64,000 nt of DNA from Bacteroidota bacterium (GCA_021794075.1 JAJYRM010000004.1:8838-72837); one strand, 5' to 3'; counted from the stretch's first letter, positions 10,840-37,198 are shown. The notes: generated from the sequence alone by a model not told the origin. A program made the numbers and translations.

Positions 10840-10866
10840 CTTCTAAGAGTGAGAGGAACTTAAAAC

Positions 10867-12222: not shown

Positions 12223-12239
12223 CTAAGAAATCAATATCA

Positions 12240-17377: not shown

Positions 17378-19228
17378 TCAAATTTCTGGCGCAGTTTGTT
17401 CCACTGTTACAATCCTGGCAGGATTGCTCCGCTTGTCGACTTTGCATCCCCTGAGCAGCGCGATATGATATGCGAGGAGCTGAAGCGGGACGATTGAGAG
17501 AATCGGAGCAAGCATGTCAAGCGTCTTCGGGATCCTGACTGTATATTTCGAGATTTTACGGACCCGGTCATCTTCCTCATCTATAACGGAGATCAAGCTG
17601 GCTCCGCGCGCCTTCACTTCCGCCATGTTTCTAACCACTTTTTCGTAAGTCGAGTCTCGAGGCGCGATGAAGATAACAGGCATACCATTTCTAACTGGCA
17701 TGGTCTGGATATTCCTCATTTCTGCCGCGGGAAATCCCTCGGCATGGATGCCCGAAATCTCTTTCAGCTCCATTGCCCCTTCCAGAGCTACGGGATAGTT
17801 GAAGCCGCGGCCGAGGTAAAGGAAGTTTTCCGAATCGGAGAAATCGTCAGCGATCTCGCGGATGTAGGGCTCAAGTTGGAGAGTTTCAGTCACGAGATCG
17901 GGTAGCCTGCATAGTTGTTTAGTGATCTCCAGCCATTCTTTGAATTCCAGTTCACACCCGCGGGTAATAGAAAGCGTGAGAAGCACGAGTGTAGCCATCT
18001 GTGATGTGAACGTCTGCGTGGAAACGCCACCCAATCCAGAGTCTGCATTTATAAATACGCCGGCATCACATTCACGGGCGATGGAGCTTCCGCCCGTGCT
18101 GTTGATTGCCAATGTCGCCGATCCTTTAGACCTGGCGATCCGGATCGCCGCCAGAGTGTCCAGGGTCTCACCGCTATGACTTATTGCCACTACCACATCT
18201 TCCTTTCCGACGACAGGGTTCCTGTCAGTGAAATCGGAAGAACGCTCCACGTCTACAGGTATCCTTAGGTACCTCTCGAGGACATACTTTCCGTACAGCG
18301 CGGAGTGCCATGAAGTTCCGGATCCTGTTACAACTATTCGTCTCGCTGAGAGCAATCTCGGCATAACGCGGAGGAGGCCGCCTGCGTTGGCGGTTTTATC
18401 CTCTTCGGATATACACCCTCGCAAGACATTGATAAGCGCGAAGGGCTGTTCGAAAATTTCTTTTTGCATGAAGTGATTGTAGCCGCCTCGCTGAATCTCT
18501 TCGGCCGACCGACTAACGTCATCCATGTCGAGATGTATTTCGGAATTTTCAAGTGTCCTGATGCTCACCCCTTCTCTCGTGATGAAGGCCGCCTGGCCGT
18601 CTGAGAGATGCACCACCTTCCCCGCATAAGGCACCAGAACAGCTTCATCGGAAGCCACAATAAATTGTCCCTCCCCCACACCGACCATAAGAGGGCTTCC
18701 CTTCCGGGCGGCGATCAGCAGGTCCGGAGAGCCGGAGTGCACGATGGCCAGAGCATATGTACCTTCCAGATCTGCGAGGGCAGCAAGAACTGCAGCTTCT
18801 ATCGTCTTGTTGTGCTTCGATTTTTCTTCGATTAAATGAGAGATCACCTCAGTATCCGTTTCCGATTTGAAAGAATGACCGAGCTCCGCTAATGATTCCC
18901 GGAGCGACGGAGAATTTTCGATGACGCCGTTGTGAACCATCGCTATAGATTGCGAACAGTCAAACTGAGGATGTGCGTTCTGAACCGAAGGGCCTCCATG
19001 TGTTCCCCAGCGCGTGTGAGCTATGCCGAGATCTGAGTCAGGTAGCCTTCCCACAACCGCACGCGCAAGGAATTCCACCTTTCCTGGACACTTGACACAG
19101 TGAATCTTCGAATTACTTACGACCGCGACTCCGGCCGAATCGTATCCGCGATACTCAAGATTGTAAAGTCCGTTCACAAGTATTGGTATGGCAATTCTGT
19201 TACCTATATATCCGACGATTCCGCACAT
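17378..19228 (-). CDS. Divergent GlmS paralog (glutamine amidotransferase + 2 SIS) with substituted isomerase catalytic residues
   Basis: 616 aa from MCGIVGYIG at 19228. Cys must be residue 1 after Met removal, so the 42-codon upstream extension in the ORF track is rejected. The glutaminase domain is intact. AMELKE, EMRNIQTMP and the C-terminus NPARIVTVEQTAPEI replace ALKLKE, EMKHGPIAL and NLAKSVTVE. Confidence 0.9.
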   Translation of the reverse strand: MCGIVGYIGNRIAIPILVNGLYNLEYRGYDSAGVAVVSNSKIHCVKCPGKVEFLARAVVGRLPDSDLGIAHTRWGTHGGPSVQNAHPQFDCSQSIAMVHNGVIENSPSLRESLAELGHSFKSETDTEVISHLIEEKSKHNKTIEAAVLAALADLEGTYALAIVHSGSPDLLIAARKGSPLMVGVGEGQFIVASDEAVLVPYAGKVVHLSDGQAAFITREGVSIRTLENSEIHLDMDDVSRSAEEIQRGGYNHFMQKEIFEQPFALINVLRGCISEEDKTANAGGLLRVMPRLLSARRIVVTGSGTSWHSALYGKYVLERYLRIPVDVERSSDFTDRNPVVGKEDVVVAISHSGETLDTLAAIRIARSKGSATLAINSTGGSSIARECDAGVFINADSGLGGVSTQTFTSQMATLVLLTLSITRGCELEFKEWLEITKQLCRLPDLVTETLQLEPYIREIADDFSDSENFLYLGRGFNYPVALEGAMELKEISGIHAEGFPAAEMRNIQTMPVRNGMPVIFIAPRDSTYEKVVRNMAEVKARGASLISVIDEEDDRVRKISKYTVRIPKTLDMLAPILSIVPLQLLAYHIALLRGCKVDKRSNPARIVTVEQTAPEI

Positions 19229-20972: not shown

Positions 20973-21785
20973 ATGAAATCCGTGAAGATAGAAAATACCG
21001 CCCCGACGGGTTCAGCGGTTGAGGAAATGGCGCCGTTAACTTCCGTATTCGATCCCGACTCCACACCTAAAGCGATGGAAGAGTGCCTTGAGAACTACTT
21101 CAACCGCATTTCGGCGATAAGAGTCCTTATCGGTCGCAACGAGCACCACAGGACCCTTTCGCCAAGGCAGGCCATACTCGCGGCGCGCCGCTACGGCATC
21201 CCAACAATTACTCGCGTCGAGTCATCAAGTTTGAAACTCACGAAAGATTTGCTTGCGATATATCTGGACCTCTGCGCCGAGACTGGAGTGAAGGGGATTC
21301 AATTCCGGAGTGAGAGTCTGCATCCGGATGTCAGGCCTCGGGAGGTTGTGTCGCTGGCGAACAGCCGAGAGCTGGACGTGCAATTTGAGATTGAAGACGC
21401 GCGCTTCATCCCGTCAATGGCGAGCGAGGCGATGGATGTATTGATCGGCAATGCCACTGAATGGCTGGACGCCGGCGCGATCAATTTAGCGGCCGATATG
21501 ACAATGGTACGTCCGGACTTGCAGATAGACCTTAACATCGATCTGGCGGAGTATCTGGCGGGCGCTTTCGGGCTACGCACGATAATATTCAAAGCATCCT
21601 TCGAGTCAGTACACCAGGAATTGTTCGCCACGTTCGGCGACGAAGTCCATATCGGCGAGGTTCCTTTTGATCGCGTAGCGGCAGTTGAGAGCATGCGCAT
21701 GAATGCCGTGACGACATTCGCGTTTCCGTCGGATAGTTCCGATTCGTATTCGCACTGGCGCTGGTCCGACAACAGGCAAGGATGA
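20973..21785 (+). CDS. ComA-like (phosphosulfolactate synthase family-like) TIM-barrel protein, paralog 2
   Basis: 270 aa. Collinear with 14514-15341: EEMAPLTSVFDP...RISAIRVLIGRNEH...TITRVES...IYLDLCAETGVKGIQFRSESLH..RPREVVSLANSRELDVQFEIED. GAGGAGG Shine-Dalgarno upstream. Confidence 0.6.
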   Translation: MKSVKIENTAPTGSAVEEMAPLTSVFDPDSTPKAMEECLENYFNRISAIRVLIGRNEHHRTLSPRQAILAARRYGIPTITRVESSSLKLTKDLLAIYLDLCAETGVKGIQFRSESLHPDVRPREVVSLANSRELDVQFEIEDARFIPSMASEAMDVLIGNATEWLDAGAINLAADMTMVRPDLQIDLNIDLAEYLAGAFGLRTIIFKASFESVHQELFATFGDEVHIGEVPFDRVAAVESMRMNAVTTFAFPSDSSDSYSHWRWSDNRQG

Positions 21786-22035: not shown

Positions 22036-23481
22036 TCATTCGATTAAGACTAACTTCGTACTGGCCCTAAGTCTTCCCATCATCAGTGTGCAGATGTAAA
22101 CTCCGCTCGCGTGACCAAAACCGCTCCAGCTCAAATCGTGAGTGCCTGCCTGTATGTAGCCGGAATAAAGCGTGGCGACCCTTTGGCCGAGGACGTTATA
22201 TACCTCCACGTCAACATCCCCGGCAACGTTAATCACGAGAGGAATTGTAACGCTGCGACTAAAAGGATTCGGGTAAGGCTGTTGGAACTTCGCCGCAATG
22301 GGTGGCGGTGGCGTCGGGGGCAATGGCTTGGCTAAGAACTTGCTGAACTGTTGCTTGACTGTCTTCAAAAGCGGATATGTTCCATTCCCAGGATATCCCA
22401 TTCCCAGTTCGTAGAGAATTATTCCGCCGAGGCCTTTCTCTTTTATGTATTCGGCTTTAGCCGCGATGGAATTCGAATCGTCATATGAAATGAACAGCGC
22501 GTCGACGGGAAGGAGTGAAGGTATGCTTAGATAGCACGCCTCGGTCTTTGCATCCCAGTGGTAATACGACGAGCGATAATATTTCTGCATTATTCCCGTA
22601 GTATCGGGAGAATAGAGCGGTACATCATACTGGACCGACAGGAGTCCGTTAAGCAACTGACCAGGAAGATCTATCCCTTGCCACACGGTTCCTCCGAATT
22701 CGGCTCCTATCCCGAGCTTCGCGGCAGGTACCCCGGCGGCCTCGTATTTTCTTACCTCATCGTCAATAGAAGGGACGTATTCCTGGGTGCCGGGGAAAGT
22801 AATCCCGTCGTTGTATATAGGGCTGTTGAACCAACTTACCCAGCCGGGGAAATCGCCGGACATATCATAAGTCATTATGTTGATCTGGTCGAGATACTTC
22901 TGCGCGCTTGCCATGACCGTGCTGGACCCTGCGGTCGAAGTCAACGTATAATTCGGCCCGACCGAATCCCTGAGAGTTTTCACGAGTGCCACGAATTGCG
23001 AGTCATCCCCTTGACTGAGCGGTTCCCAATCGATGTCTATCCCGTTATACCCTCCGGCCCTGGCGAAGGTCACAAGGTTCGACACAAATTTGTTCAATAT
23101 CGCAGGCGCCGTGGCAGCCAGAAAATCTTTTTCGGTCGCCCAACCACCGATGCAAATCAAGACATTAGCCCCGGCGGCATGAGCGGCTTTAACGAGAGCG
23201 GCCCCTCCCTCCTTTGTGATATCGTTGTCGGCAGTGTCCAGGGTCCCATCCGGATTCGGAACGAGCGCGAAATAGACAACGTCGGTCATCGCGCTGAAAT
23301 CGACATCGGACACAGGGAGATATCCGTCGCTCCCTGTACCTAATTCCCATCCGCCATAATACGCGGTCACCCAATGTTGTTGCAACGGGCCGGCAATCAA
23401 CGGGACGCCGTTGAAGGGCATGACAATCAGCGCGGAGACTACCAGGCTCCAGCATAAGCACACTTCGATCTTCTTCATCAT
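22036..23481 (-). CDS. GH18 chitinase-like hydrolase with T9SS CTD (paralog 2)
   Basis: 481 aa. WVTAYYGGWE, CIGGW, YNGIDIDWE, MTYD, C-terminal PYPNPFSRS...STKLVLIE. Confidence 0.9.
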   Translation of the reverse strand: MMKKIEVCLCWSLVVSALIVMPFNGVPLIAGPLQQHWVTAYYGGWELGTGSDGYLPVSDVDFSAMTDVVYFALVPNPDGTLDTADNDITKEGGAALVKAAHAAGANVLICIGGWATEKDFLAATAPAILNKFVSNLVTFARAGGYNGIDIDWEPLSQGDDSQFVALVKTLRDSVGPNYTLTSTAGSSTVMASAQKYLDQINIMTYDMSGDFPGWVSWFNSPIYNDGITFPGTQEYVPSIDDEVRKYEAAGVPAAKLGIGAEFGGTVWQGIDLPGQLLNGLLSVQYDVPLYSPDTTGIMQKYYRSSYYHWDAKTEACYLSIPSLLPVDALFISYDDSNSIAAKAEYIKEKGLGGIILYELGMGYPGNGTYPLLKTVKQQFSKFLAKPLPPTPPPPIAAKFQQPYPNPFSRSVTIPLVINVAGDVDVEVYNVLGQRVATLYSGYIQAGTHDLSWSGFGHASGVYICTLMMGRLRASTKLVLIE

Positions 23482-23514
23482 TTACGAAGTACCAGCTCAT
23501 CCCAGCGAGAGAGG

Positions 23515-24786
23515 CTAATCACGCTGCCCTGCGCTCATCCTGATTTTTTTCATCCCATGGATCATCGAAAGCCGTTCAAGTGACTTGCCGAAAGCGTTGC
23601 CGGCCGCTTCCAGCAGAGGGTATTTCCCATCGCCGGGATATCCCCAGCCAAGCTCATACAAGATGATGCCGCCGAGTTTTTTCTTCTTCACATAGGCCGC
23701 CTTCGCCGCAATCGACGCCGAGTCATCATATGAAACAAACATATCGCCGGAATTTTGCCCCGCATGAATGCTTAGATAAGGCACCTTGGCGACCGGATCC
23801 CAATGTTCGTCAGACTTCGAATAGTATTTTTGCATTATTCCAGATCCATCGTGCCAGTAAAGCGGAACATCGAAGCGAACGGAAGGAGGAGATATCCATT
23901 TCTGGTCGGGCCTGGTCACTCCTTTCCCATCCATCATCACCCCTCCACGCCAAACTGCGCCGGCTAACTCCGCTCCGATACCGAGCTTTGAAGCCGGGAC
24001 ACCAGCGTCCGTGAATTTCTTGACGATGTTGTCGCACGCCGGTACCGGCTTCGACCAGCCTACAGTTATCCCGTCGTCATACAAGGCGCTGTTGTACCAT
24101 GTTACCCATCCATCCGATGGAAACGACAAGTCGTAAGTCATTAGATTTATTTCATCGAAATATTCGGACAACGAGGCCATTAGATTTTGAGACCCCGAAC
24201 TCGTGGCTGCGGTCAGGATGTACGGATGAGGTAGAGCCGCTCTTAATGCCTTCGTCAGATTTGCGTAAGCAGAAAAGTCGGAGTTGGTTAACGGCTCCCA
24301 GTCGATGTCCACGCCGTCGTAGTGACTTTTCCTCACGAACTTCACGATATTTCTCACGAAAGTGTCGAGTTCGGCTGGACGGGTCGCTCCTTCAAACAGC
24401 TTCTGAGTCTGCCAGCCACCTATCCCCATTATAACCGCAGTTCCTGCCGCGTGCGCCTCGCGTACCAGGGCGTTTGATCCCTCGCTGCTCATGTTGTCCG
24501 ACGTATCGATCGCGCCATTCGGGTAAGGAGTGAAGCCGAAATAGACCACGGCAGTCATGGAAGAGAAGTTGACTACGTTGATCGGAGGATTGCTGTTTGT
24601 GCCGTTGCCGACCTCCCAGCCGGGATAGTAACATGTGACCCAGTGTCGCGCCTGCGCGAAACAGTCGGACGCGGAAGATATGGAGAATATGACAGCGGCT
24701 GCCACGTACAACCATTGAATATTCGTTACCCGGCGTGCCGGGCTGCTCAGGCTATTCGAGCGTGAACATTCTGATCGATATTTCAT
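23515..24786 (-). CDS. GH18 chitinase-like hydrolase without T9SS CTD (paralog 3)
   Basis: 423 aa. WVTCYYPGWE, GIGGW, YDGVDIDWE, MTYD. It ends just after the catalytic domain, so no sorting domain. Confidence 0.85.
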   Translation of the reverse strand: MKYRSECSRSNSLSSPARRVTNIQWLYVAAAVIFSISSASDCFAQARHWVTCYYPGWEVGNGTNSNPPINVVNFSSMTAVVYFGFTPYPNGAIDTSDNMSSEGSNALVREAHAAGTAVIMGIGGWQTQKLFEGATRPAELDTFVRNIVKFVRKSHYDGVDIDWEPLTNSDFSAYANLTKALRAALPHPYILTAATSSGSQNLMASLSEYFDEINLMTYDLSFPSDGWVTWYNSALYDDGITVGWSKPVPACDNIVKKFTDAGVPASKLGIGAELAGAVWRGGVMMDGKGVTRPDQKWISPPSVRFDVPLYWHDGSGIMQKYYSKSDEHWDPVAKVPYLSIHAGQNSGDMFVSYDDSASIAAKAAYVKKKKLGGIILYELGWGYPGDGKYPLLEAAGNAFGKSLERLSMIHGMKKIRMSAGQRD

Positions 24787-24863
24787 CTGAAATAATCCTT
24801 TCGAGTTATAGTTGAGGCGATATCCATGTGGTCTAGATACGACCTCTTCCCTACTTGACCTTC

Positions 24864-26351
24864 TTATTTGAGAAGGACCATCTTTCTCATAATTGATACA
24901 TTATTTATACGCAAAGTGAATAGGTACACGCCGCTCGCGTCTCCGCTCCCGTTCCACTCCCTGGAGTACGAACCGGGCAAAAGGTAACTATCGATCAGGG
25001 TAGCGATTCTCTCCCCGAGAATATTGTAGATGTCGAGCGTGACGTGCGCCGGCGTGTCAATCCGGAATGAGATTGCGGTTACTGGATTAAATGGGTTGGG
25101 ATAGTTCTGATAAAGGCTTCCGAAAAGGCCTACATTACCGCTCGTGATCGGGACGTAGTACAGGAAGTCCGACTTGATCGACTGCAAAAGTGGATAAGAT
25201 CCATGCCCCGGATATCCCATCCCAAGCTCGTAAATAATGATTCCGCCGAGACCTTCCTTCCTGATGAATCGCGCCTTTGCTTCGATCGACGCTGAATCGT
25301 CATACGAAACGAAGCAAGCTGGTTTTCCCCGCTGCTGCGGAATGCTGAGATAACCAACTTGCGCCAGTGAGTCCCAGTGATAGTAATAAGGCTTGTAGTA
25401 ATGCTGCATTATTCCGGTGCTGTCATGTGAGTAAAGTGGCACATCATACATAACAGAATTGAGCGAAAATAGCGATTCGTCCGGTTCAGTTACGCCCGTC
25501 CAGACTGTCCCGCCAAGTTCCGCCCCGATACCGATTTTATCCGGAGCGACCCCCGCCTTTTCGAAGTTGTCAACGACCGCCTTAATGGAAGGGAGATGCG
25601 TCTTCAACCCCGGAAATTTCAGGCCGCCGTCGTAGACAGGCGAATTGAACCAAACGACCCATCCGCCTGTTGGAAAGGACATCTCATACGTCATAATATT
25701 TACTTGTTCAAAGTAATTCTGATCGAGTGACATAATCTTCTTATTACCGGGACTGCATGTTGTAGTTAGAAAATCAGCTTTTGAAATCGCCTTGAGAGAA
25801 TCGTGGAGCGCTCTGGCGAGTGCTGTGAAGGGATAGTAATCCTGAGCGTTGATTGGTTCCCAGTCGATGTCTATTCCGTCGAATTTATTTACCCTGACGA
25901 AGTCGATAAGATTTCGGACGAACTCGCTGAGGTGCCCGGTATCGGTAGCGCGCTCGAAGTCTGTTCCGCTTCCGGCTCCTCCGACGCATATCAACACTTT
26001 CGCGGAGGCGGAGTGCGCCGCGCGAATGAGTTTCTCCGTCCCTTCACTAGTGATTCCATTTGTGGATGTATCAATCGTGCCGTCGGCGTTCGGCACAAGA
26101 GCGAAATCTATAACATCGGTGAAGGCGGAAAAGTCGACATCAGAAACAGGGAGATAACCGTTCGAGCCGTTACCGAGTTCCCAGGCTCCGTAATAAGCCG
26201 TTACCCAATGAGCCGGCTCAGCGTCACAGAATTTCGGTACACATAAGAACGATGACATCATTACAGAAACCAATGAAATGAAAGCCCGCGCAAGATCGCT
26301 TCGCGCGAGCATGGATAAATAGGAATCGGAGCCAACTGATGGTGTATTCAA
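24864..26351 (-). CDS. GH18 chitinase-like hydrolase with T9SS CTD (paralog 4)
   Basis: 495 aa. WVTAYYGAWE, CVGGA, FDGIDIDWE, MTYE, CTD QNYPNPFNPVT...MRKMVLLK. Confidence 0.9.
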   Translation of the reverse strand: MNTPSVGSDSYLSMLARSDLARAFISLVSVMMSSFLCVPKFCDAEPAHWVTAYYGAWELGNGSNGYLPVSDVDFSAFTDVIDFALVPNADGTIDTSTNGITSEGTEKLIRAAHSASAKVLICVGGAGSGTDFERATDTGHLSEFVRNLIDFVRVNKFDGIDIDWEPINAQDYYPFTALARALHDSLKAISKADFLTTTCSPGNKKIMSLDQNYFEQVNIMTYEMSFPTGGWVVWFNSPVYDGGLKFPGLKTHLPSIKAVVDNFEKAGVAPDKIGIGAELGGTVWTGVTEPDESLFSLNSVMYDVPLYSHDSTGIMQHYYKPYYYHWDSLAQVGYLSIPQQRGKPACFVSYDDSASIEAKARFIRKEGLGGIIIYELGMGYPGHGSYPLLQSIKSDFLYYVPITSGNVGLFGSLYQNYPNPFNPVTAISFRIDTPAHVTLDIYNILGERIATLIDSYLLPGSYSREWNGSGDASGVYLFTLRINNVSIMRKMVLLK

Positions 26352-26712
26352 TTTCCGCTACTCCAATGCAATGTCGTTAGCAGGCCCCGATGGTGGTGAT
26401 GCCCAGCCTGCCATCGCCGGATTTCACTCCTGATCGAGTTTAAAACCAGTCGGTTCGGTCAAGCTGGGTGAACTTACCGTGGACCCGCCCTCGCGAGCCG
26501 TCCGATAACTTGGCGGCTTGTTCATGACGGCCCCTCCTTCGACTTGGCTCCGTGGGACCTGGCAAGAATATATCATCAATCCTCAGGCCGGAAGATTCTG
26601 ACGATTATTCATCGAATCGCTGCAGGCCGCGTATATATTTTACACGCTCATTCCGGAGAATTGGTTAGGTGGTACACATTTACGGCGAACGAGGCGGCTC
26701 GTCGGGAGGTAC

Positions 26713-26745
26713 AAAAAAAAGGTCGCCCCATTTCTGAGGGCGACC
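26713..26745 (-). terminator. Rho-independent terminator after the large GH18 gene
   Basis: Minus strand: GGTCGCCC-tcagaaat-GGGCGACC followed by T8 (plus-strand A8 at 26713-20). A second 7-bp hairpin (gctcggc/gccgagc, 26770-26790) lies between it and the stop codon. Confidence 0.75.
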
Positions 26746-26806
26746 CCGCGAACATTTCAATTTATGGCAGCTCGGCAGAGTGAGCCGAGCCTGTCTCATC
26801 GAGTCG

Positions 26807-29800
26807 TCACTTTATTAGAATCATCTTCTTAATCATGGCTTTGTTGCCTGCCATCAGTCTGTAGAAATAAACTCCGCTCGCGCAACTCGAACCATTCCAC
26901 ACCGCAGAATGCATTCCAGCGCTCATGTAACTATCGACCAGCGTTGACACCTGCTGGCCGAGCGTGTTGTACACCTTGAGCGTAACATGCGCTGCTTCCG
27001 GTACAGAAAACATAATCGTTGTAGTCGGGTTGAAAGGATTCGGATAGTTTTGCTCCAGGGCAAACTTCGAGGGCGTTTGCACCGAGGCGACAGTATCTAT
27101 TCCGGTAGCCGTCAGCGAACTGGAGGCATTGTTCAATTGCAGATTGTCCAGATAGTATGTCTCGGTTTGGCTGCTGTTCTCCGAAATGTCGATCCGGTCA
27201 AATTGCTGATTAGACGGATTTAGACTGCTCATCGGTACCGTTATCAATGTCCATTTATTAGCGTGAACACTCCCGACAGAGACGGCCTGGAATGAGGTTC
27301 CCGCGTCGCTTTCAAGTCCAACTGTGAAGGACATCTTCGAGCTAGTGTAGACCTCGAACTGGACTGCGCTGTAAAGAGCCGGGTTTATGTACTCCCCGGA
27401 ATTCCACGCGCCATAATGGAGACTCGCCGCTCCCCATTCACCTTGTACAACTGAAATCGAGGAGCTTCCGCCGTAAACCGGGCTGGTGTTTGAGAAGTTG
27501 AGCGTGGCATTCCATGAGGCGTCCATCCACGGAGACTGGAGCGCATCCTGGTAAATTGCCAGGCCGGGAACGGAAGCCACCGAAGGTATTTTGAAGACCC
27601 AGGGGGAAGACCAATTGCTCGTCAAGCTGCCGGAGCTCGCGTCGGCGCGCCAGTAATACGTGTTTCCCGCCTGCAAATTGTTTACGGTAAGGGAATCCGT
27701 CGTCAGGTTGGCGCTATCGACAACGGTCGAAGAGAAAGTACTGTCCGTCGATACCTGTAGTCGGCAGGATGTGGCTCCCGAAGGTATTTTCCATGTCAAC
27801 GTCACCGGGGATGTGACAGTGGAATCAGCTTCGGCAGGTAGCAAGAGTGTCGGCGCCGGAATCGTGGTCAGCTGCAGATTATCGATATAGTAAGTTATTG
27901 GATTGCCGCTCGCGTCTTCGATTACAAGCATGGTGAAGACCTGGTTCGTCGGATCGAGCTCCGACATCGGAATAGTGATGCTTGTCCAGTGATCCGCGGA
28001 AACCGTGCCATAATTGACAGTCGGGAACGTGACTCCCGTCGGACCGCCCATAAGGAACACCGCAAGGTCGATAGAAGAAGCGGAATAGATGTCGAATGTA
28101 ACGTCGGAATACTGCGCCGGGTCAACATTCACCAACGCATTCCATCCTCCGGAAAGGAGCCTGAAACCGCCGGAAGCATTCTGTGCGACGCTAACGGACG
28201 CGGTGCATCCGCTGTAAACTATAGATGTGTTTGCGAAATCGTCAGTCACGTTCCACGAACCATCCGACCAGTTCGACGCCAGCTGGTTCTGGTAAATCCA
28301 AGTCCCCGAAGTGCTGGCTGCGCTAGAGGCGACGGTATTAGAGACCGTTACCGTTACTGAACTGGTTGCTGTGTTACCTGCCGCGTCGCTCGCAACCGCT
28401 GATATCGTGTGGGTGCCGTTTGACAGACCGGATGTGGCCAATGTAGTGGTGTACGGCGAGGTAGTAATAGCGCTTCCATAATTCGTTCCGTCGATCTTAA
28501 ATTGCACGCCAGTTACGCCGACATTGTCGCTGGCGTTTGCTGAAAGCGATATGGTCCCGGACACGGTCGATCCGCTCGAGGGCGACGTGACAGAAACAGT
28601 CGGCGCGGTTGTATCCTTGGTCGAGAGGATGTTTGAAACATTCACGGTGATCGACGCAGTCGAAGAATTGCCCGCGGCGTCCGTTGCCGTCGCGCTTATC
28701 GTGTGCGTGCCGTTAGTTAGCGTCGTAGTGAGAAGGCTTGCTGTAAACGGAGCAACACTGATTGTCGATCCGATCAAACTGCCATCCACTTTGAACGTAA
28801 CGCCTGTAACTCCGACGTTATCGGAAGCGTTAGCCGAAATTGACAGAGTGCCGGACACCGTCGCGCCGTTCGTCGGCGAGGAAATCGAAATAGAGGGAGG
28901 AATCGTGTCGGTCGGCACCGCTGTAGTACCGCCGCCCATCTCTTTCTTCACGTACGCCAGCAAGGGATAAGTGCCGTTGCCCGGGTATCCCATGCCGAGA
29001 GAATAGATGATCAATCCGCCGAGTCCCTTGCTGTTTATGTAGTTAAACTTGGCATTGACATCGCTCGTGTCTTCAAAGCTTATGAAGTAATCGCTGGAGT
29101 TGGTCGAGCCGGTCGTGCTGAGGTAAGACGCCTGGGCCTGACTGTCCCAGTGATAGTCCTGGGCATTGTAATATTTTTGCATGATTCCGGAGCCGTCCGA
29201 CGCATAAAGGGGCACGTCTTCCTGTACGGTGGGAGCTGTTGACCATGCCTGGTTTGGTCCGGTTACACCGGCGCCGTTCGTCATCGTGCCGCCGTTCCAC
29301 ACTGTCCCGGCGAACTCGGAGCCTATGCCGAGTTTAGATGCGGACACACCGGCGCTTTCATAACTGGCAACCTGTGAATTGACGTTGGATGAAGCTTCCG
29401 ACCCGTTTGTTGAGGCCGTGCCGTAAGAATATACAGAGCTGTTGTACCATGACACCCATCCCTGCCACGGGCCGGCCATATCGTATGTCATGATATTTAT
29501 CTGGTTAACTTCCGACTGGACGGCCGCCATCGCGGTAGGATCTCCGGCAGTCGTCGTAATCAGATAGGAGCTCCCCAGCGCGGAGCGAAGAGCCTTAATC
29601 AGCGCCTCGTACTGCGCGTCGTCGGTTGAGGCTTCCGGTTCCCAGTCGATATCTACGCCGTCCATATTATTGTTCTTTACAAAAGCGACGATGTTAGAGA
29701 CGAACGTGTTAAGGTTCGTCGAGTTCGTGGCGCCCTGGAATCCGCTCTCGGTATTCCATCCGCCAACGCAGATAAGCACTTTGGTGCCGCTGGCATGCGC

Positions 29801-30082
29801 CGCTGTGGTAAGCGCCGTGGCACCGGTTGTCGAAATGCCGTTGCTCGCTAAATCGAGCGATCCGTCCGCGTTAGGCACGATCGCGAAATAGACAACGTCG
29901 GTCATCGCGCTAAAATCGACATCTGCGACCGGCATGTACCCGTTTGATCCATCTCCTAACTCCCACCCGCAATAATAAGCAGTCACCCACGGCTTGGCCT
30001 GTACTTTCGCTGCCGCAATCGACATGAGAAATATCAGCGCCGCGGTCAACAAACCTCGGTATCTATTCTCGAACTTTTTCAT
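26807..30082 (-). CDS. Multidomain GH18 (paralog 5): GH18 + 2 Ig-like + CBM-like + FN3-like + CBM-like + T9SS CTD
   Basis: 1091 aa. WVTAYYCGWE, CVGGW, MDGVDIDWE, MTYD. Two repeats ..SGT(L/I)S(I/L)SANASDNVGVTGV.FK(V/I)DG... One YYWRADAS FN3-like module of the same type as in 2499-6572. CTD QNYPNPFNPTT...IKKMILIK. AAGGAG Shine-Dalgarno. Confidence 0.9.
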   Translation of the reverse strand: MKKFENRYRGLLTAALIFLMSIAAAKVQAKPWVTAYYCGWELGDGSNGYMPVADVDFSAMTDVVYFAIVPNADGSLDLASNGISTTGATALTTAAHASGTKVLICVGGWNTESGFQGATNSTNLNTFVSNIVAFVKNNNMDGVDIDWEPEASTDDAQYEALIKALRSALGSSYLITTTAGDPTAMAAVQSEVNQINIMTYDMAGPWQGWVSWYNSSVYSYGTASTNGSEASSNVNSQVASYESAGVSASKLGIGSEFAGTVWNGGTMTNGAGVTGPNQAWSTAPTVQEDVPLYASDGSGIMQKYYNAQDYHWDSQAQASYLSTTGSTNSSDYFISFEDTSDVNAKFNYINSKGLGGLIIYSLGMGYPGNGTYPLLAYVKKEMGGGTTAVPTDTIPPSISISSPTNGATVSGTLSISANASDNVGVTGVTFKVDGSLIGSTISVAPFTASLLTTTLTNGTHTISATATDAAGNSSTASITVNVSNILSTKDTTAPTVSVTSPSSGSTVSGTISLSANASDNVGVTGVQFKIDGTNYGSAITTSPYTTTLATSGLSNGTHTISAVASDAAGNTATSSVTVTVSNTVASSAASTSGTWIYQNQLASNWSDGSWNVTDDFANTSIVYSGCTASVSVAQNASGGFRLLSGGWNALVNVDPAQYSDVTFDIYSASSIDLAVFLMGGPTGVTFPTVNYGTVSADHWTSITIPMSELDPTNQVFTMLVIEDASGNPITYYIDNLQLTTIPAPTLLLPAEADSTVTSPVTLTWKIPSGATSCRLQVSTDSTFSSTVVDSANLTTDSLTVNNLQAGNTYYWRADASSGSLTSNWSSPWVFKIPSVASVPGLAIYQDALQSPWMDASWNATLNFSNTSPVYGGSSSISVVQGEWGAASLHYGAWNSGEYINPALYSAVQFEVYTSSKMSFTVGLESDAGTSFQAVSVGSVHANKWTLITVPMSSLNPSNQQFDRIDISENSSQTETYYLDNLQLNNASSSLTATGIDTVASVQTPSKFALEQNYPNPFNPTTTIMFSVPEAAHVTLKVYNTLGQQVSTLVDSYMSAGMHSAVWNGSSCASGVYFYRLMAGNKAMIKKMILIK

Positions 30083-30537
30083 TTGTTCTCCTTGCTTTGT
30101 AATCCGTTGCTCGAAGCATCATTAACGGAATCGATGTTGTTCTTGACAGCCTTCTCATAGGAGAGAGCCGTCAGGCAATCGATGAATTGGTTCAGTTGAG
30201 TCGTGAGGCTGAATACGAATGTGGCGCCCGCTTCCTTCCAGACTTCCTCTCCCGCCGAGTTGAACGGCAGAGTCAGCACTACAATAATCACATCCGGATT
30301 GATTCGCCGGATTACCGGGACCACGCCTGTTCCCAGGCGTCCGAATTTCGGGAGCACTACGACTACCACATCTGGACAAGTTGATAGGACTTCGCACACG
30401 ACGTTGACTTCATCAGCTACGTCGCTTACGCATTCGACATTCGGGATTTCCGAAATGATCGCTCGAAGTTTCGGGCGCATTATCTCCGAATCGGTGGCTA
30501 GTAAAATTCTCATCATATTCTCACGCCTGTTTTTCAT
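30079..30537 (-). CDS. Stand-alone receiver-fold protein lacking the phospho-acceptor Asp (pseudo-receiver)
   Basis: 152 aa. CheY-like layout (RILLATDS...PDVVVVVLPKFG...IIVVLTLP...FVFSL), but the D57-equivalent is Val/Leu and the K109-equivalent is Ser. The stop overlaps the GH18 start in an ATGA (30079-30082). Confidence 0.65.
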   Translation of the reverse strand: MKNRRENMMRILLATDSEIMRPKLRAIISEIPNVECVSDVADEVNVVCEVLSTCPDVVVVVLPKFGRLGTGVVPVIRRINPDVIIVVLTLPFNSAGEEVWKEAGATFVFSLTTQLNQFIDCLTALSYEKAVKNNIDSVNDASSNGLQSKENK

Positions 30538-31359: not shown

Positions 31360-33402
31360 ATGAAAAATATAATCAAGATACCGATGCTCGTCGCACCAAT
31401 CTTCTTTCTCTCTACCTTCTTCACAAGCGCTGCCTTTGCGCAGCAGGGATGGGTACCCGAGAAGAGCGGAACGTCAAATAATCTCTACGCCGTCTCTTTT
31501 CCCGATACAATGACTGCATACGTCGTCGGCGCCGGCGGCGCAATACTAAAGAGCACAGACGGAGGAGTGACCTGGACAAGCCAGACGAGCGGAACAACTC
31601 AGTCCCTGCTGGGGATTACTTTCACAAATGTCGACACCGGAACCGTTGTCGGCGGCGGCGGAACGATTCTACACACCACAAATGGCGGAGTGACGTGGCT
31701 GAAACAAACCAGCGGCACAGGTACCAACCTCCGTGCGGTTTCCTTCTTCCACGGCAACAACGGTATGGCAGTGGGAGACGGAGGAACAATACTCTACACA
31801 AGCGACGGTGGTACGACATGGAATAGGCAGAACAGTGGAGTAACAAACAAACTGACGGGCGTCTCATCCGTAAATGACAGCACATGGGTAGCAGTAGGAG
31901 TCGGGACACCTTTTGGCGGTTCCAGCGGCGAAGCTCCCGTTCTACGCACAACAAATGCGGGAAGTACCTGGAATCAGGTAACCAATATATACAGGTTGCA
32001 AACAAGACAACTGGAGACGCTAAATGCTGTCTCCTTTAGAAGTAATCTTGGACTTGCCGCTGGATACTCTGAAGGGCAAACCGGATTAACGGGACCTATC
32101 GAATTCATCACCAGCGACGGAGGCGCCTCCTGGAACGAGAAGAGCGAAGGCGCATCACTTCATGGCTGCTCCTATGCGGAGGCATCAGCATGGTATGCAG
32201 TCGGATATCCGGGGATGATCGTTCGAAACGGCGCCGTCCAAACTCTCGGAAGAGCTAATCAATACGCTACGTTGAATGCCGTGGCATTTGCGAACGGCGC
32301 TAAAGGTATTGTTCTAGCAGGGAACACAATCCTTAGAACAACCGACGGCGGGATTGCCCCTCCGTATGCTCCCGCATTAGCTGTGCCCGCAAACGGTACA
32401 ACAAATTCTCCTACAAATCCATCTTTCAAGTCTACAGATTCATGCTGGGTAACCGGCTCACGCATACAAATATCGCCGGACAGCAGTTTCCTGTCAGTAG
32501 TCTATGATACTTCGCACGGACCTGGCGCATACGGCAGTGTTCAAGTGTACCAGGCGCAGGGGCTCGCACAAGGTACCACTTACTATTGGAGAGTCAGAAC
32601 AAGCAATGCTTACGGGAACAGCCCGTGGTCTCAAGTCTGGCACTTCACGACTCAAGGTAATCCTGATCTGGCGGTCTACGACTCGACTCTCCAGTCTCCA
32701 TGGACCGATGTGTCGTGGGGAGCTTCCGTTACCTACACCGACTCCAACGCCATCAGCGTAAATGCCGACGCATGGGGAGCCCTGAGTCTGCTCGACGGTT
32801 CCTGGAGCACTCAGGACTCGGTCAACCCTTCCATGTACACCAGCTTCAACTTCTCCTTCATGGGCACACAGGAGTTCGGCGTCTTCCTCCAGACCGATTC
32901 AGGACAGTCCCTTCCCTGCGTCGATACCACGCTTACAGAATCAGGGTGGGTAAATGTATCCATTCCGGTGAGCCAACTCGACCCCAACGGCACAAAATTC
33001 AGCAGGCTGACATTCCAGTCCGATGAGGCATCTGCCTACCGGTTCTATGTAAGAGACTTGAGGTTTGTCGGACTCGGGCAGTCATCCAAGGCATTCAGAC
33101 AATTGTCTCCTTTGGCCGGAGTCGGTACGGAAGTTCCAAAATCATTCAGCCTCGCACAGAACTATCCCAACCCGTTCAATCCCACAACGACGATCGACTA
33201 TCAGATCCGCAACCCGAGCCACGTCTCGCTGACCGTCTATGATGTACTCGGCAGAGTTGTTCAAACGCTGGTCAACACAAACCAGCAGGCTGGATCGTAT
33301 TCAGTCTCCTTCAACGCTTCCGGCCTTGCCAGCGGTGTGTACCTCTACAGGCTCATCGCAGGTGATCACATTTTCCTGAAGAAAATGATGTTGGTGAAAT
33401 AG
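31360..33402 (+). CDS. T9SS-secreted protein: BNR/Asp-box (Ycf48-like) propeller + FN3-like + CBM-like + CTD
   Basis: 680 aa. Signal peptide. Five Asp-boxes (STDGGVTW, TTNGGVTW, TSDGGTTW, TTNAGSTW, TSDGGASW). One TTYYWRVRTS module. CTD QNYPNPFNPTT...LKKMMLVK. Confidence 0.9.
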   Translation: MKNIIKIPMLVAPIFFLSTFFTSAAFAQQGWVPEKSGTSNNLYAVSFPDTMTAYVVGAGGAILKSTDGGVTWTSQTSGTTQSLLGITFTNVDTGTVVGGGGTILHTTNGGVTWLKQTSGTGTNLRAVSFFHGNNGMAVGDGGTILYTSDGGTTWNRQNSGVTNKLTGVSSVNDSTWVAVGVGTPFGGSSGEAPVLRTTNAGSTWNQVTNIYRLQTRQLETLNAVSFRSNLGLAAGYSEGQTGLTGPIEFITSDGGASWNEKSEGASLHGCSYAEASAWYAVGYPGMIVRNGAVQTLGRANQYATLNAVAFANGAKGIVLAGNTILRTTDGGIAPPYAPALAVPANGTTNSPTNPSFKSTDSCWVTGSRIQISPDSSFLSVVYDTSHGPGAYGSVQVYQAQGLAQGTTYYWRVRTSNAYGNSPWSQVWHFTTQGNPDLAVYDSTLQSPWTDVSWGASVTYTDSNAISVNADAWGALSLLDGSWSTQDSVNPSMYTSFNFSFMGTQEFGVFLQTDSGQSLPCVDTTLTESGWVNVSIPVSQLDPNGTKFSRLTFQSDEASAYRFYVRDLRFVGLGQSSKAFRQLSPLAGVGTEVPKSFSLAQNYPNPFNPTTTIDYQIRNPSHVSLTVYDVLGRVVQTLVNTNQQAGSYSVSFNASGLASGVYLYRLIAGDHIFLKKMMLVK

Positions 33403-34361: not shown

Positions 34362-34409
34362 ACTCTTGCCTCCTTAATCCAAGTTTCCATGATTCCGTTT
34401 CCCAATTGT

Positions 34410-35054
34410 TCACTCTATCAGATGTTTTTCGATCGCGTACATGGTGAGCTCAGTGACGCTTTTCATATTCATTTTTTCCATAACTCTCGATTTGTAAGTG
34501 TTGACGGTATGGATACTAATGGAAAGTTCGTCGGCGATTTCCTTGACCTTCTTCCCCTGGGCGAGTGCTCGCATTATTTGGAACTCCCTGTTCGAGAGGA
34601 CCTCGTGCGGCTGCTTCTCGAGATCTCTATCGAGTTCGGAAGCAAGCTGTTCGGCCAGCGAACCCGTAATGTATTTTTTCTTTTTCGCCAGGGTGCGGAC
34701 AGCCGCGATGATTTCCTCGGGGGCGGTCTCTTTCGTCAGATAGCCTGATGCTCCTGACTTCAAAGCGCGAACGGCGAAGCGTTCCTCCGGGTGCATTGTC
34801 AATACAAGGATGGGAAGCTTCGGATAGCGATGCTTCAGGTCGCCCAGAAGGCTCAGAGTTCCTTTGCCCGGCATCGAGAGGTCAGTTATAAGCACATCGG
34901 GTTCGGCCTTCTCGACCCCGTCAAGGAGTTCCTGTTCGTTGGACCCCTCGCCTATCACCTTGAGATCGCCTTCCGCCTCGAGGATTTCCCTGAGTCCTTT
35001 CCTGACCAGCGGATGATCGTCGGCAATAAAAAGTCTAATCATGTGTTCATTCAA
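34410..35054 (-). CDS. NarL/LuxR-family response regulator (REC + HTH)
   Basis: 214 aa. IADDHPLV, PDVLITDLSMPG, VLVLTMH, GYLTKE. HTH LSNREFQIMRALAQGKKVKEIADELSISIHTVNTYKSRVMEKM. Confidence 0.9.
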   Translation of the reverse strand: MNEHMIRLFIADDHPLVRKGLREILEAEGDLKVIGEGSNEQELLDGVEKAEPDVLITDLSMPGKGTLSLLGDLKHRYPKLPILVLTMHPEERFAVRALKSGASGYLTKETAPEEIIAAVRTLAKKKKYITGSLAEQLASELDRDLEKQPHEVLSNREFQIMRALAQGKKVKEIADELSISIHTVNTYKSRVMEKMNMKSVTELTMYAIEKHLIE

Positions 35055-37158: not shown

Positions 37159-37198
37159 AAATGAAAGTGAACGTCAAAACTAGACAAGAATGGTTTAA

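What the first reader, a model, noticed from the sequence alone, without database searches (positions are those of the whole stretch)
22036..30082. Array of four GH18 chitinase-like genes (a fifth at 15346-16821) inside an EPS biosynthesis locus, mostly T9SS-secreted
All five paralogs keep the GH18 catalytic DG(V/I)DIDWE and MTY(D/E) motifs. Four end in Por/T9SS sorting domains, and one (23515-24786) has none. The largest adds 2 Ig-like, an FN3-like and 2 CBM-like modules. EPS loci usually carry a single polymer-trimming hydrolase. Five diverged GH18s sit next to a QRRRW-type synthase, a CE4 deacetylase and two GlmS genes. This points to a GlcNAc-rich (chitin/PNAG-like) self-made polymer that is processed extracellularly, rather than a chitin-foraging locus, since no SusC/D or transporter genes are present.
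Basis: partly seen in the sequence, partly recalled or inferred. Interest (0 to 1): 0.65.

Follow-up and report, generated by a model that had tools for sequence, protein, structure and literature searches.

The report
Chitinase-like gene array inside polysaccharide locus
Five diverged chitinase-family (GH18) genes sit inside a conserved surface-polysaccharide biosynthesis locus of an uncultured Kryptoniota bacterium from mine drainage, and they most likely cut the cell's own N-acetylglucosamine-containing polymer rather than forage chitin, though no experiment has tested this.

Summary
All five ORFs are GH18 (Pfam E 1e-39 to 1e-48). Four carry type-A T9SS sorting domains and one has only a signal peptide. 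The largest adds two Big_7 domains, a weak FN3 and two 148-aa modules that fold like type-B CBMs. One copy reads NGIDIDWE, not DG(V/I)DIDWE.

The locus is a Wzx/Wzy-dependent repeat-unit pathway, not a chitin/PNAG-type synthase system. Its QRRRW GT2 domain is fused to a GT26 domain and is closest to Myxococcus EpsU/EpsA.

The GH18 array lies in the same locus in at least five other Kryptoniota-type genomes. Paralog-by-paralog orthologs show the duplications are old. Every member of this clade replaces the canonical -1 subsite Trp with Tyr, and the beta7 Tyr with Gly/Ala/Ser. A 38%-identical relative that keeps Trp/Tyr sits beside GH20, NagB and a sugar transporter, which is a catabolic setting.

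The locus logic (GlcNAc-1-P transferase, CE4 deacetylase, FemX-like acyltransferases, extra GlmS) parallels the chitinase-sensitive Caulobacter holdfast.

Best reading: a signal-regulated set of periplasmic and cell-surface glycanases that remodel the cell's own polymer (confidence about 0.5). Chitin foraging remains a live rival. No expression or biochemical data exist.

The parts
15346..16821 (-). GH18_a: signal peptide + GH18 catalytic domain + type-A T9SS C-terminal sorting domain (491 aa)
   Evidence: PF00704 E 6e-45, Por_Secre_tail E 2.8e-8. TIGR04183. FDGVDIDWE, MTYD, IIYELGWGY.
22036..23481 (-). GH18_b: GH18 + T9SS sorting domain (481 aa). The first Asp of DxxDxDxE is Asn (YNGIDIDWE).
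   Evidence: Its ortholog in L005 keeps Asp. It has a 1:1 ortholog in L002.
23515..24786 (-). GH18_c: signal peptide + GH18 only, no sorting domain (423 aa). Predicted to stay in the periplasm.
   Evidence: PF00704 E 2.7e-48 and no Por tail. AF2 pLDDT 90.6, chitinase-type fold. A member without a sorting domain is present in every related array.
24864..26312 (-). GH18_d: GH18 + T9SS sorting domain. It has MTYE, and CVGGAG lacks the +1 Trp. The likely start is the ATG at 26312; the ORF as listed begins at the TTG at 26351.
   Evidence: Called at 482 aa in the 99.7%-identical strain L084. The ortholog in L002 shares CIGGAG.
26807..30082 (-). GH18_e: GH18 + 2x Big_7 + CBM-like module 1 (27860-28309) + FN3-like + CBM-like module 2 (27128-27571) + T9SS sorting domain (1091 aa)
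   Evidence: Orthologs with the same architecture occur in L001, L002, L092 (72% id), L007, L008, L010, L012, L090.
30079..30537 (-). 152-aa receiver-like protein without a recognisable phospho-acceptor Asp. It overlaps the GH18_e start by 4 bp.
   Evidence: No Pfam hit. A conserved 131-152 aa gene lies upstream of the large GH18 in L001, L002, L010/L086, L014, L049, L054, L092. The L090 ortholog hits PF00072. The degenerate motifs were read by eye.
26719..26747 (-). Terminator-like hairpin (11-bp stem, T run) after GH18_e. It separates the hyp152-GH18_e unit from the GH18_d-c-b unit.
   Evidence: consensus scan only.
31360..33402 (+). BNR/Ycf48-like beta-propeller T9SS protein that carries one copy of the same CBM-like module (residues 436-568)
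   Evidence: hmmsearch with the module profile gave E 1.1e-22. Ortholog in L092.
33546..35054 (-). WcaF-like hexapeptide O-acetyltransferase (33546-34361) and NarL/GerE-type response regulator (34410-35054)
   Evidence: The regulator is 71-85% identical and syntenic in L001, L002, L091, L092.
35593..47245 (+). Assembly module: Wzy, Wzx, GT4-CE4 fusion, two FemX-like Acetyltransf_6 proteins, ProDH-like protein, GT2(QRRRW)-GT26 fusion, hexapeptide acetyltransferase
   Evidence: Collinear at 55-93% identity in L091, L092, L093.
6591..14441 (.). Initiation and export module: WecA-type HexNAc-1-P transferase, PorV/PorQ-like barrel, short OPX (Wza), PCP (Wzz), kinase-like ATPase, DegT aminotransferase
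   Evidence: Syntenic in L001, L002, L006, L014, L084.
14514..15341 (+). ComA-like (PF02679) paralog 1, convergent with GH18_a
   Evidence: 59.6 bits. Far below the NCBIfam ComA cut-off.
17378..19228 (-). GlmS2, a second glutamine-fructose-6-P aminotransferase inside the locus. The true start is near 19228.
   Evidence: TIGR01135 652 bits, aligned from residue 44. Called at 616 aa in L084.
20973..21785 (+). ComA-like paralog 2, convergent with GH18_b
   Evidence: 55.4 bits.
56..6572 (-). GlmS1 (56-1888), 182-aa membrane protein, and a 1357-aa FN3-repeat T9SS surface protein (2499-6572)
   Evidence: The FN3 giant plus the 182-aa gene accompany the GH18 module in L014, L049, L090.

Best explanation
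The window holds a conserved Kryptoniota locus for a Wzx/Wzy-made surface heteropolysaccharide that contains HexNAc.

Inferred assembly route:
- A WecA-type transferase starts the repeat unit with a HexNAc-1-phosphate.
- GT26, GT2 and GT4 domains extend it.
- A cytoplasmic CE4 domain removes N-acetyl groups.
- FemX-like acyltransferases and hexapeptide acetyltransferases re-decorate it.
- Wzx, Wzy, PCP and OPX, plus a barrel protein, flip, polymerise and export it.

Five old GH18 paralogs are embedded in this locus. One stays in the periplasm. Four are taken by the T9SS to the cell surface, and one of those carries two type-B-like carbohydrate-binding modules. They use the GH18 substrate-assisted mechanism to cut beta-HexNAc linkages of this polymer. 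The effect would be to trim, size, release or remodel it, under control of a NarL-type response regulator and a pseudo-receiver.

Shown: gene content, domain architecture, intact catalytic D-x-D-x-E/Tyr, conserved synteny, old duplications, and the clade-specific change of the -1 subsite.

Inferred: the polymer's composition, that it is the substrate, and the biological role of the cutting.
For: 1. Synteny. The GH18 array lies between the Wzy/Wzx/GT module and the PCP/OPX/PGT module in L001 and L002, where GH18 identity to the window is only 46-61%. The same holds in Kryptoniota Bin_42 (L092, L006, L083). In L039 it lies next to the GT2-GT26 fusion. Local rearrangements have kept the GH18s inside the locus.
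2. Old, retained paralogs. GH18_b, d and e have 1:1 orthologs in L002. Paralog-specific active-site variants are shared with those orthologs: GGAG in d, YSLG in e.
3. Derived active site. The -1 Trp (SmChiA W539 = ChiW W905; PMC5132251, alignment) is Tyr in all five. The beta7 Tyr is Gly/Ala/Ser. The two changes are coupled: 69 sequences carry both and 130 are canonical.
4. Contrast. The canonical relative P0103 (38% id) sits with GH20, an MFS sugar transporter, PIG-L and NagB. No such gene is in the window or in the syntenic loci.
5. No CBM5/12, CBM2, CBM73 or LysM was found. The accessory module instead resembles chain-binding CBM8/29/11/22. It is shared with the neighbouring BNR protein.
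6. HexNAc supply and modification. There are two GlmS, a WecA-type PGT (TIGR02380 E 1.5e-38), CE4 with intact motifs, and FemX-like proteins. This is the same logic as the wzy-type, chitinase-sensitive Caulobacter holdfast with HfsH and HfsK (PMC6372794, PMC5362036).
7. Wzy is 78-81% identical across Kryptoniota MAGs. That implies a conserved repeat unit to which dedicated enzymes could adapt.
8. Precedents. ExoK/ExsH cut nascent succinoglycan (PMC4916376). A predicted hydrolase, EpsB, sits in the Myxococcus Wzx/Wzy eps cluster (PMC7484181). Francisella GH18 chitinases modulate that organism's own biofilm (PMC3963990).
Against: - No biochemical, compositional or expression evidence exists. Metatranscriptomes of the source study contain nothing from the locus.
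- The fold and the -3, +1 and +2 aromatic residues are those of ordinary chitinases. Chitin or chito-oligosaccharides may still be substrates.
- One Kryptoniota MAG has at least 12 GH18 genes of this clade on several contigs. Some arrays are flanked by sensor kinases and sigma-54 activators rather than EPS genes. That pattern is also what substrate-induced catabolic systems look like.
- T9SS is the usual export route for foraging glycosidases in this superphylum.
- Whole-genome content (NagA, NagB, NagK, GH20) could not be checked.
- The structural meaning of the Trp-to-Tyr and Tyr-to-Gly/Ala changes is inferred from alignment only.
Confidence: 0.5

Rival explanations
1. Chitin or chito-oligosaccharide foraging, for example on fungal cell walls in mine-drainage biofilms. 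The GH18s would be ordinary secreted and periplasmic chitinases. They would sit next to the polysaccharide genes only because attachment and matrix production are co-regulated with chitin degradation, or through inherited gene order.
For: - The fold is a chitinase-type GH18 with an insertion domain.
- The closest solved relatives are true chitinases, ChiW and ChiD.
- The catalytic D-x-D-x-E and MxYD motifs are intact, and the -3, +1 and +2 aromatic residues are kept.
- A periplasmic-plus-secreted division of labour is typical of chitinolytic systems.
- Large paralog expansion and dedicated two-component and sigma-54 regulators flank some arrays.
- Canonical relatives are in catabolic loci.
Against: - No transporter, GH20 or NagA/B/K was found in 64 kb here or in any syntenic locus.
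- No chitin-specific CBM was found.
- The -1 Trp and the beta7 Tyr are replaced throughout the clade.
- An anabolic GlmS is interleaved with the GH18 genes.
- The position inside the locus is retained across rearrangements.
Confidence: 0.3
2. Surface-coat co-localisation. The locus would make the glycan to which type-A T9SS cargo is anchored, or a coat in which the cargo sits. The T9SS cargo genes (FN3 giant, BNR protein, four GH18s) would cluster with it as cargo plus anchor, not enzyme plus substrate. The GH18s could then act on some third substrate, or mainly as lectins or adhesins.
For: - Six T9SS-tailed proteins lie in or next to the locus.
- A weak PorV/PorQ-family barrel sits between the OPX and the PGT (33 bits).
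- The PF04932 family of the 'Wzy' protein also contains O-antigen ligases.
- FemAB-like and DegT genes recall the genes for the P. gingivalis A-LPS linking sugar. That comparison is from my own knowledge and was not tested.
Against: - The PCP, kinase-like ATPase and OPX indicate an exported capsule or EPS rather than an LPS-linked glycan.
- GH18_c has no sorting domain yet is a constant member of the array.
- The catalytic residues are under clear conservation in all paralogs and orthologs, which argues for enzymes rather than lectins.
Confidence: 0.1
3. The five genes are decaying or non-catalytic chitinase-like pseudo-enzymes left over from a former chitin-degrading lifestyle.
For: Canonical -1 subsite residues are lost. 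One copy has D-to-N at the first Asp, and one has MTYE and no +1 Trp.
Against: - All reading frames are intact.
- The D-x-D-x-E glutamate and the catalytic Tyr are invariant across 69 clade members.
- Paralog-specific variants are conserved between genomes.
- Full-length orthologs at 46-72% identity indicate purifying selection.
Confidence: 0.04

Closest known systems
Family GH18 chitinases with an insertion domain (Paenibacillus ChiW, Serratia ChiD/ChiA/ChiB)
   Same: - (beta/alpha)8 barrel plus insertion domain (Foldseek E 1e-24).
- Best sequence match is ChiW at E 1e-33.
- The DxDxE and MxYD motifs and the -3, +1 and +2 aromatic residues are kept.
- The enzymes are displayed on the cell surface, as ChiW is.
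   Different: - The -1 subsite Trp is Tyr, and the beta7 Tyr(/Arg) is Gly/Ala/Ser in the whole clade.
- There is no chitin-binding CBM.
- The genomic setting is biosynthetic, not catabolic.
Glycanases encoded with Wzx/Wzy-dependent EPS pathways: Sinorhizobium ExoK/ExsH (succinoglycan) and the Myxococcus predicted hydrolase EpsB
   Same: - Secreted hydrolases are encoded with the biosynthetic genes of a repeat-unit EPS.
- ExoK and ExsH cut the cell's own polymer to lower molecular weight (PMC4916376).
- EpsB sits in the eps cluster (PMC7484181).
- The GT2-GT26 fusion here is closest to Myxococcus EpsU and EpsA.
   Different: - The hydrolase family differs (GH18, versus GH16/RTX-type for ExoK/ExsH).
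- There are five paralogs instead of one or two.
- Delivery is by T9SS.
- Action on the cell's own polymer is not shown here.
Caulobacter holdfast (Hfs) pathway
   Same: It is a wzy-type pathway. Its polymer contains GlcNAc and is sensitive to chitinase and lysozyme. It has a CE4 deacetylase (HfsH) and a FemX-like tandem-GNAT acyltransferase (HfsK) (PMC6372794, PMC5362036). The window has the same enzyme classes.
   Different: - To my knowledge, no GH18 is encoded in the hfs locus.
- The initiating transferase class differs.
- The organism and the export partners differ.
- The homology is at family level only (HfsH model 23.7 bits).
Synthase-dependent systems with one periplasmic or secreted hydrolase (PgaB, BcsZ, PelA, PslG, AlgL)
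   Same: The concept is the same: a hydrolase is co-encoded with the polymer it cleaves. A periplasmic member (GH18_c) could clear or size polymer in transit.
   Different: This is not a synthase-dependent locus. PgaC/IcaA and PgaB equivalog scores are far below cut-off. There is no PgaA/BcsC-type porin.
Francisella novicida chitinases ChiA/ChiB
   Same: GH18 chitinases whose loss or addition changes the producer's own surface properties and biofilm (PMC3963990).
   Different: They are not part of a polysaccharide biosynthesis locus and are not T9SS cargo.

Membership tests
CAZy GH18 (chitinase-type) | (beta/alpha)8 barrel, here with an alpha+beta insertion domain | tested here: met
   PF00704 in 5/5. 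AF2 model of GH18_c has pLDDT 90.6. Foldseek top 50 are all GH18 chitinases or chitinase-like proteins, E about 1e-24.
CAZy GH18 (chitinase-type) | DxxDxDxE motif with the catalytic Glu | tested here: met
   D-x-D-x-E in 5/5. The first Asp is Asn in 22036-23481 only.
CAZy GH18 (chitinase-type) | MxYD Tyr/Asp that position the 2-acetamido group | tested here: met
   MTYD in 4 and MTYE in 24864-26351.
CAZy GH18 (chitinase-type) | Trp flooring the -1 subsite (SmChiA W539 / ChiW W905) | tested here: not met
   Tyr in 5/5 and in all 69 clade members. Trp in 130 canonical relatives and in the solved chitinases aligned (residue roles from PMC5132251).
CAZy GH18 (chitinase-type) | Hydrolysis of chitin or chito-oligosaccharides | not testable with these tools
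   Needs an enzyme assay.
T9SS type-A cargo | C-terminal TIGR04183/PF18962 sorting domain plus an N-terminal signal peptide | tested here: met
   Sorting domain in 4/5 GH18s, the BNR protein and the FN3 giant. Signal peptides were read by eye. The T9SS machinery itself was not looked for.
Wzx/Wzy-dependent polysaccharide locus | Initiating phosphoglycosyl transferase, Wzx flippase, Wzy polymerase, PCP and OPX | tested here: met
   PF00953/TIGR02380, PF01943, PF04932, PF02706+PF13807, PF02563+SLBB. PF04932 does not distinguish a polymerase from a ligase.
Synthase-dependent chitin/PNAG-like system (PgaABCD, NodC-type) | PgaC/IcaA- or NodC-type processive synthase as the sole polymerising enzyme, with PgaB and PgaA partners | tested here: not met
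   The GT2 domain has QRRRW but scores 60 bits against TIGR03937 (cut-off 422). The PgaB model scores 85.6 bits (cut-off 322). No PgaA was found, and Wzx/Wzy are present.
Chitin utilisation (foraging) locus | GH18 together with an uptake system (SusC/D, MFS or ABC) and GH20/NagA/NagB/NagK | tested here: not met
   None in the 64-kb window or in syntenic loci L001, L002, L083, L092. Present around the canonical relative in L088. The rest of the genome was not examined.
EPS-locus-encoded self-glycanase | Hydrolase gene conserved inside the biosynthetic locus and exported | tested here: met
EPS-locus-encoded self-glycanase | Cleaves the polymer made by the same locus | not testable with these tools
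   Needs the polymer and the enzymes.

The most novel reading that the evidence does not exclude
The Kryptoniota GH18 clade has rebuilt the pocket under the -1 sugar (Trp to Tyr, Tyr to Gly/Ala/Ser). The rebuilt pocket would accept a HexNAc whose N-acyl group or ring has been altered by the locus's own enzymes: CE4, FemX-like acyltransferases, DegT and ComA-like proteins. The five conserved paralogs would then be a graded toolkit, one periplasmic and four surface-displayed. Each would be tuned to a different modification state of one lineage-wide polymer, and all would be switched by a NarL-type regulator and a pseudo-receiver to remodel or shed the matrix. This would be the first GH18 subfamily dedicated to a non-chitin bacterial exopolysaccharide.
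Probability: 0.25. Interest if true: 0.7.

Novelty: new variant of a known kind. Interest (0 to 1): 0.5.

Why it matters
If the array acts on the cell's own polymer, three things follow:
- The substrate range of GH18, one of the best-studied glycosidase families, would extend to a bacterial Wzx/Wzy exopolysaccharide.
- It would be a natural example of active-site retuning: coupled Trp-to-Tyr and Tyr-to-Gly changes at the -1 subsite.
- It would show how an uncultured phylum in metal-rich mine waters builds and remodels its matrix with T9SS-displayed enzymes.

It also matters for annotation. Genes like these are currently called 'chitinase' and counted as chitin-degradation potential in metagenome surveys. 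For this clade that inference may be wrong.

Tried and rejected
- Expression. Only DNA runs hold the locus (mine drainage and tailings). Three metatranscriptomes of the same study gave only spurious matches of about 35 nt. There are no co-expression data.
- Rfam. The window has no hit at gathering threshold.
- Pfam on the two CBM-like modules, the 152-aa gene and the split 352-aa gene found nothing, even at E 10.
- The word-indexed homolog search with the CBM-like module returned only two proteins. The exhaustive HMMER search was needed.
- Literature. Searches for GH18+exopolysaccharide+Wzy and for Kryptonia/Kryptoniota+chitin(ase) found nothing relevant.
- ENGase or peptidoglycan-hydrolase readings were rejected. 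There are only sub-threshold EndoS TIM-barrel hits (below 21 bits, cut-off 27) and no LysM. The fold matches are chitinases.
- The PNAG/chitin-synthase reading was rejected.
- I first took the split gene at 19828-20886 for a FemAB-like gene. It has only weak pairwise similarity to the N-terminal part of 40788-42281 (E 1.5e-5) and no Pfam hit, so I leave it as unknown.
The position of the substituted residues in the pocket therefore rests on alignment to ChiW and SmChiA, not on geometry.
Full report
**Observation**

The window has five minus-strand ORFs that hit Pfam Glyco_hydro_18 with E-values from 6e-39 to 3e-48. They lie at 15346-16821, 22036-23481, 23515-24786, 24864-26351 and 26807-30082.
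- Their catalytic domains are 44-52% identical to one another.
- Four end in a type-A T9SS sorting domain (PF18962/TIGR04183). 23515-24786 has none. All five begin with a signal-peptide-like N-terminus, read by eye.
- The 1091-aa protein adds two Big_7 domains and a weak FN3 (22 bits, below the cut-off).
- It also adds two 148-aa modules that are 45% identical to each other and match no Pfam family.
- An AlphaFold model of one of these modules (pLDDT 82, shallow alignment) matches CBM8 (TM 0.78), CBM29, CBM11 and CBM22. 'CBM-like' is therefore justified at fold level.

- 22036-23481 reads YNGIDIDWE.
- 24864-26351 reads MTYE and lacks the Trp after GG.
- The TTG start of 24864-26351 is probably 13 codons too early.

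**The neighbourhood**

The surrounding genes form a Wzx/Wzy-dependent polysaccharide locus.
- Initiation and export: a WecA-type HexNAc-1-P transferase, a short OPX lipoprotein with a weak PorV/PorQ-like barrel beside it, a PCP, and a kinase-like ATPase without a Tyr tail.
- Assembly: Wzy and Wzx.
- Glycosyltransferases and modification: a GT4-CE4 fusion with intact TFDD and HSMTH motifs, two FemX-like Acetyltransf_6 proteins, a GT2-GT26 fusion that carries QRRRW, DegT, two hexapeptide acetyltransferases, two ComA-like proteins, and two GlmS genes.

The QRRRW GT2 domain is not a PNAG or chitin synthase ortholog. It scores 60 bits against the PgaC/IcaA model, whose cut-off is 422. It is closest to Myxococcus EpsU, and its C-terminal half is closest to EpsA/WecG. 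Both are glycosyltransferases of a Wzx/Wzy EPS pathway (PMC7484181). No SusC/D, importer, GH20 or Nag gene was found in any ORF scanned.

**Source organism**

Near-identical DNA occurs in mine-drainage and tailings metagenomes. A 99.7%-identical strain is GCA_027320265.1. Relatives are MAGs labelled Candidatus Kryptoniota or 'Bacteroidetes bacterium'.

**Conservation of the arrangement**

- L001 and L002 have GH18s only 46-61% identical to the window's. Even so, an array of three to four GH18 genes lies between Wzx-Wzy-regulator-acetyltransferase-small receiver-like gene on one side and kinase-PCP-OPX-barrel-PGT on the other.
- Kryptoniota Bin_42 has a collinear copy. It runs GH18_d, GH18_e (72% id), receiver-like gene, BNR protein, acetyltransferase, regulator, Wzy (78% id), Wzx, GT4-CE4, Fem1, Fem2, ProDH-like, GT2-GT26 (L092). 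It also has further GH18 arrays next to the PGT/OPX genes (L006, L083).
- L039 has a GH18 pair 4 kb from the GT2-GT26 fusion.
- A neighbour-joining tree places window paralogs b, d and e each with a single L002 gene, and a and c with L001/L005 genes. The duplications therefore predate these lineages.
- Paralog-specific active-site variants are shared with the orthologs: GGAG in d and YSLG in e.
- Each array contains one member without a sorting domain and one giant multi-domain member.
- Wzy, usually a very variable protein, is 78-81% identical across Kryptoniota MAGs. This points to a conserved repeat unit.

**Active site**

The model of GH18_c (pLDDT 90.6) is a chitinase-type barrel with an insertion domain. 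Its best matches are insect, mammalian and Serratia chitinases. By sequence, the nearest solved structures are Paenibacillus ChiW and Serratia ChiD-type enzymes. The following are kept:
- the catalytic D-x-D-x-E;
- the MxYD Tyr;
- the Trp of the YYxxW motif (-3 subsite);
- the Trp after GG (+1 subsite, in four of the five);
- a Trp after MTYD.

The Trp that floors the -1 subsite is SmChiA W539, equal to ChiW W905 (PMC5132251). I placed it by counting in the alignment. It is Tyr in all five proteins. The beta7 F-Y-x-R motif is (F/L)-(A/G/S)-G-x.

Across 228 aligned relatives, 69 carry Tyr plus Gly/Ala/Ser and 130 carry the canonical Trp plus Tyr. The derived state defines the Kryptoniota-type clade. 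Solved active chitinases aligned over this segment have Trp. The non-enzymatic IDGF-2 has Phe. That these residues shape the pocket for the sugar and its N-acyl group is an inference from alignment and from my recollection of GH18 structures. It was not measured on the model.

**A control**

The canonical relative P0103 (38% identity, Trp/Tyr kept) lies beside GH20, an MFS sugar transporter, a PIG-L deacetylase, glucosamine-6-P isomerase and a GerE regulator. That is a typical catabolic setting. The derived clade lies in biosynthetic or regulatory settings.

Ignavibacteria-type relatives that still have Trp/Tyr already carry three associated features:
- the regulator plus small receiver plus giant GH18 module;
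- the FN3 giant;
- in L014, the OPX/PGT genes.

The association with this locus therefore seems older than the active-site change.

**The accessory module**

An exhaustive HMMER search found 1246 representative clusters with the 148-aa module. Of 61 sampled carriers:
- 30 have GH18;
- 30 have Big_7;
- 22 have a T9SS tail;
- 3 have GH5;
- 4 have a Ycf48/BNR propeller;
- 2 each hit CBM_11 and CIA30.

The neighbouring BNR/T9SS protein at 31360-33402 carries one copy (E 1e-22). Two adjacent secreted proteins therefore probably bind the same ligand. The fold relatives are chain-binding (type B) modules, not the flat crystalline-chitin binders.

**Mechanism proposed**

GH18 enzymes need a 2-acylamido group on the -1 sugar. 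Any substrate must therefore contain a beta-linked HexNAc-type residue. The locus starts its repeat unit with a HexNAc-1-P, has an extra GlmS, and has deacetylase and acyltransferase functions.

The same enzyme logic makes the Caulobacter holdfast. That polymer is a wzy-type product, it is sensitive to chitinase and lysozyme, and it is modified by the CE4 enzyme HfsH and the FemX-like HfsK (PMC6372794, PMC5362036).

I therefore think the most likely role of the array is to cut the cell's own polymer. One enzyme would act in the periplasm and four on the surface. They fall into two transcription units, hyp152-GH18_e and GH18_d-c-b, separated by a terminator-like hairpin at 26719-26747. Control would come from the NarL-type regulator and the pseudo-receiver.

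Precedents for the concept:
- ExoK/ExsH (PMC4916376);
- EpsB (PMC7484181);
- the Francisella chitinases (PMC3963990).

I put this reading at about 0.5.

**Rivals**

- Foraging on exogenous chitin, about 0.3. It is favoured by the ordinary chitinase fold, the retained outer subsites, the paralog expansion (at least 12 in one MAG) and the sensor-rich flanks of some arrays.
- A 'cargo plus anchor glycan' co-localisation, about 0.1.
- Decay to pseudo-enzymes, below 0.05. The conservation pattern argues against it.

**Novelty and limits**

I found no description of GH18 arrays in Wzx/Wzy loci, or of this clade, in the searchable literature. The enzymes are new members of GH18. The arrangement is a new variant of the known theme of locus-encoded self-glycanases.

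Everything about the substrate is inference. There are no expression data, no polymer chemistry and no whole-genome inventory.

Noticed in passing
window 19828-20886 (+): A 352-aa gene of unknown function is split by an in-frame TAG at 20353-20355. The codon is Tyr and the gene is intact in the 99.7%-identical strain L084 (GCA_027320265.1). It has weak pairwise similarity to the N-terminal part of the FemX-like protein at 40788-42281 (E 1.5e-5) and no Pfam hit.
   Followed up: partly
window 14514-15341 and 20973-21785 (+); L002 15707-16603: Two paralogs of the phosphosulfolactate synthase (ComA, PF02679) family score 55-60 bits, far below the NCBIfam equivalog cut-off. Each is convergent with a GH18 gene. 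In L002 the single copy sits in a DegT/CE4/Acetyltransf_6 operon. Their role in a polysaccharide locus is unexplained. One possibility is that they supply an unusual acyl or sulfonated substituent.
   Followed up: no
window 8674-9597 (-): A 307-aa protein with a signal peptide and a weak PorV/PorQ-family hit (33 bits) lies between the short OPX (301 aa, no long C-terminal helix) and the PGT. It is conserved there in L001, L006, L014 and L084. It may be the outer-membrane barrel partner of the OPX.
   Followed up: partly
window 30079-30537 (-): A 152-aa receiver-like protein appears to lack the phospho-acceptor Asp and the conserved Lys (read by eye). Its reading frame overlaps the GH18_e start by 4 bp, which suggests translational coupling. 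It is conserved upstream of the giant GH18 in many genomes. The L090 ortholog still hits PF00072.
   Followed up: partly
window 27128-27571, 27860-28309 (-), 32665-33063 (+): An uncurated CBM-like module family of about 148 aa forms 1246 representative clusters at E <= 1e-3 and has no Pfam model. About half of sampled carriers are GH18 proteins. It also occurs with GH5 and BNR propellers.
   Followed up: yes
window 35593-37158 (+); L091, L092, L093: The Wzy-family protein is unusually conserved: 78-93% identity across Kryptoniota MAGs. It is more conserved than the GH18 genes beside it.
   Followed up: partly
window 12240-13016 (+): The kinase-like ATPase next to the PCP has a Walker A motif but no C-terminal tyrosine cluster. 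It resembles tyrosine pseudokinases such as Myxococcus EcpK.
   Followed up: no
window 51371-60802 (+): Downstream of the polysaccharide locus lies a cluster with a Fe-S/flavin oxidoreductase, two large multihaem c-type cytochromes (c7/MtrC-like domains) and a CcmF/ResB-like cytochrome assembly protein. This suggests extracellular or metal-linked electron transfer in a mine-drainage organism.
   Followed up: no
L006-L009, L083, L092 (Kryptoniota Bin_42): One MAG carries at least 12 GH18 genes of this clade on five contigs. Some arrays are flanked by PAS-HisKA_3 kinases, GerE regulators, sigma-54 activators and a Methyltransf_21 gene rather than by EPS genes.
   Followed up: partly
window 47256-50129 (-): A 957-aa protein has only a C-terminal HAD-IIB (Cof-type) phosphatase hit. 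Its N-terminal two thirds are unassigned.
   Followed up: no
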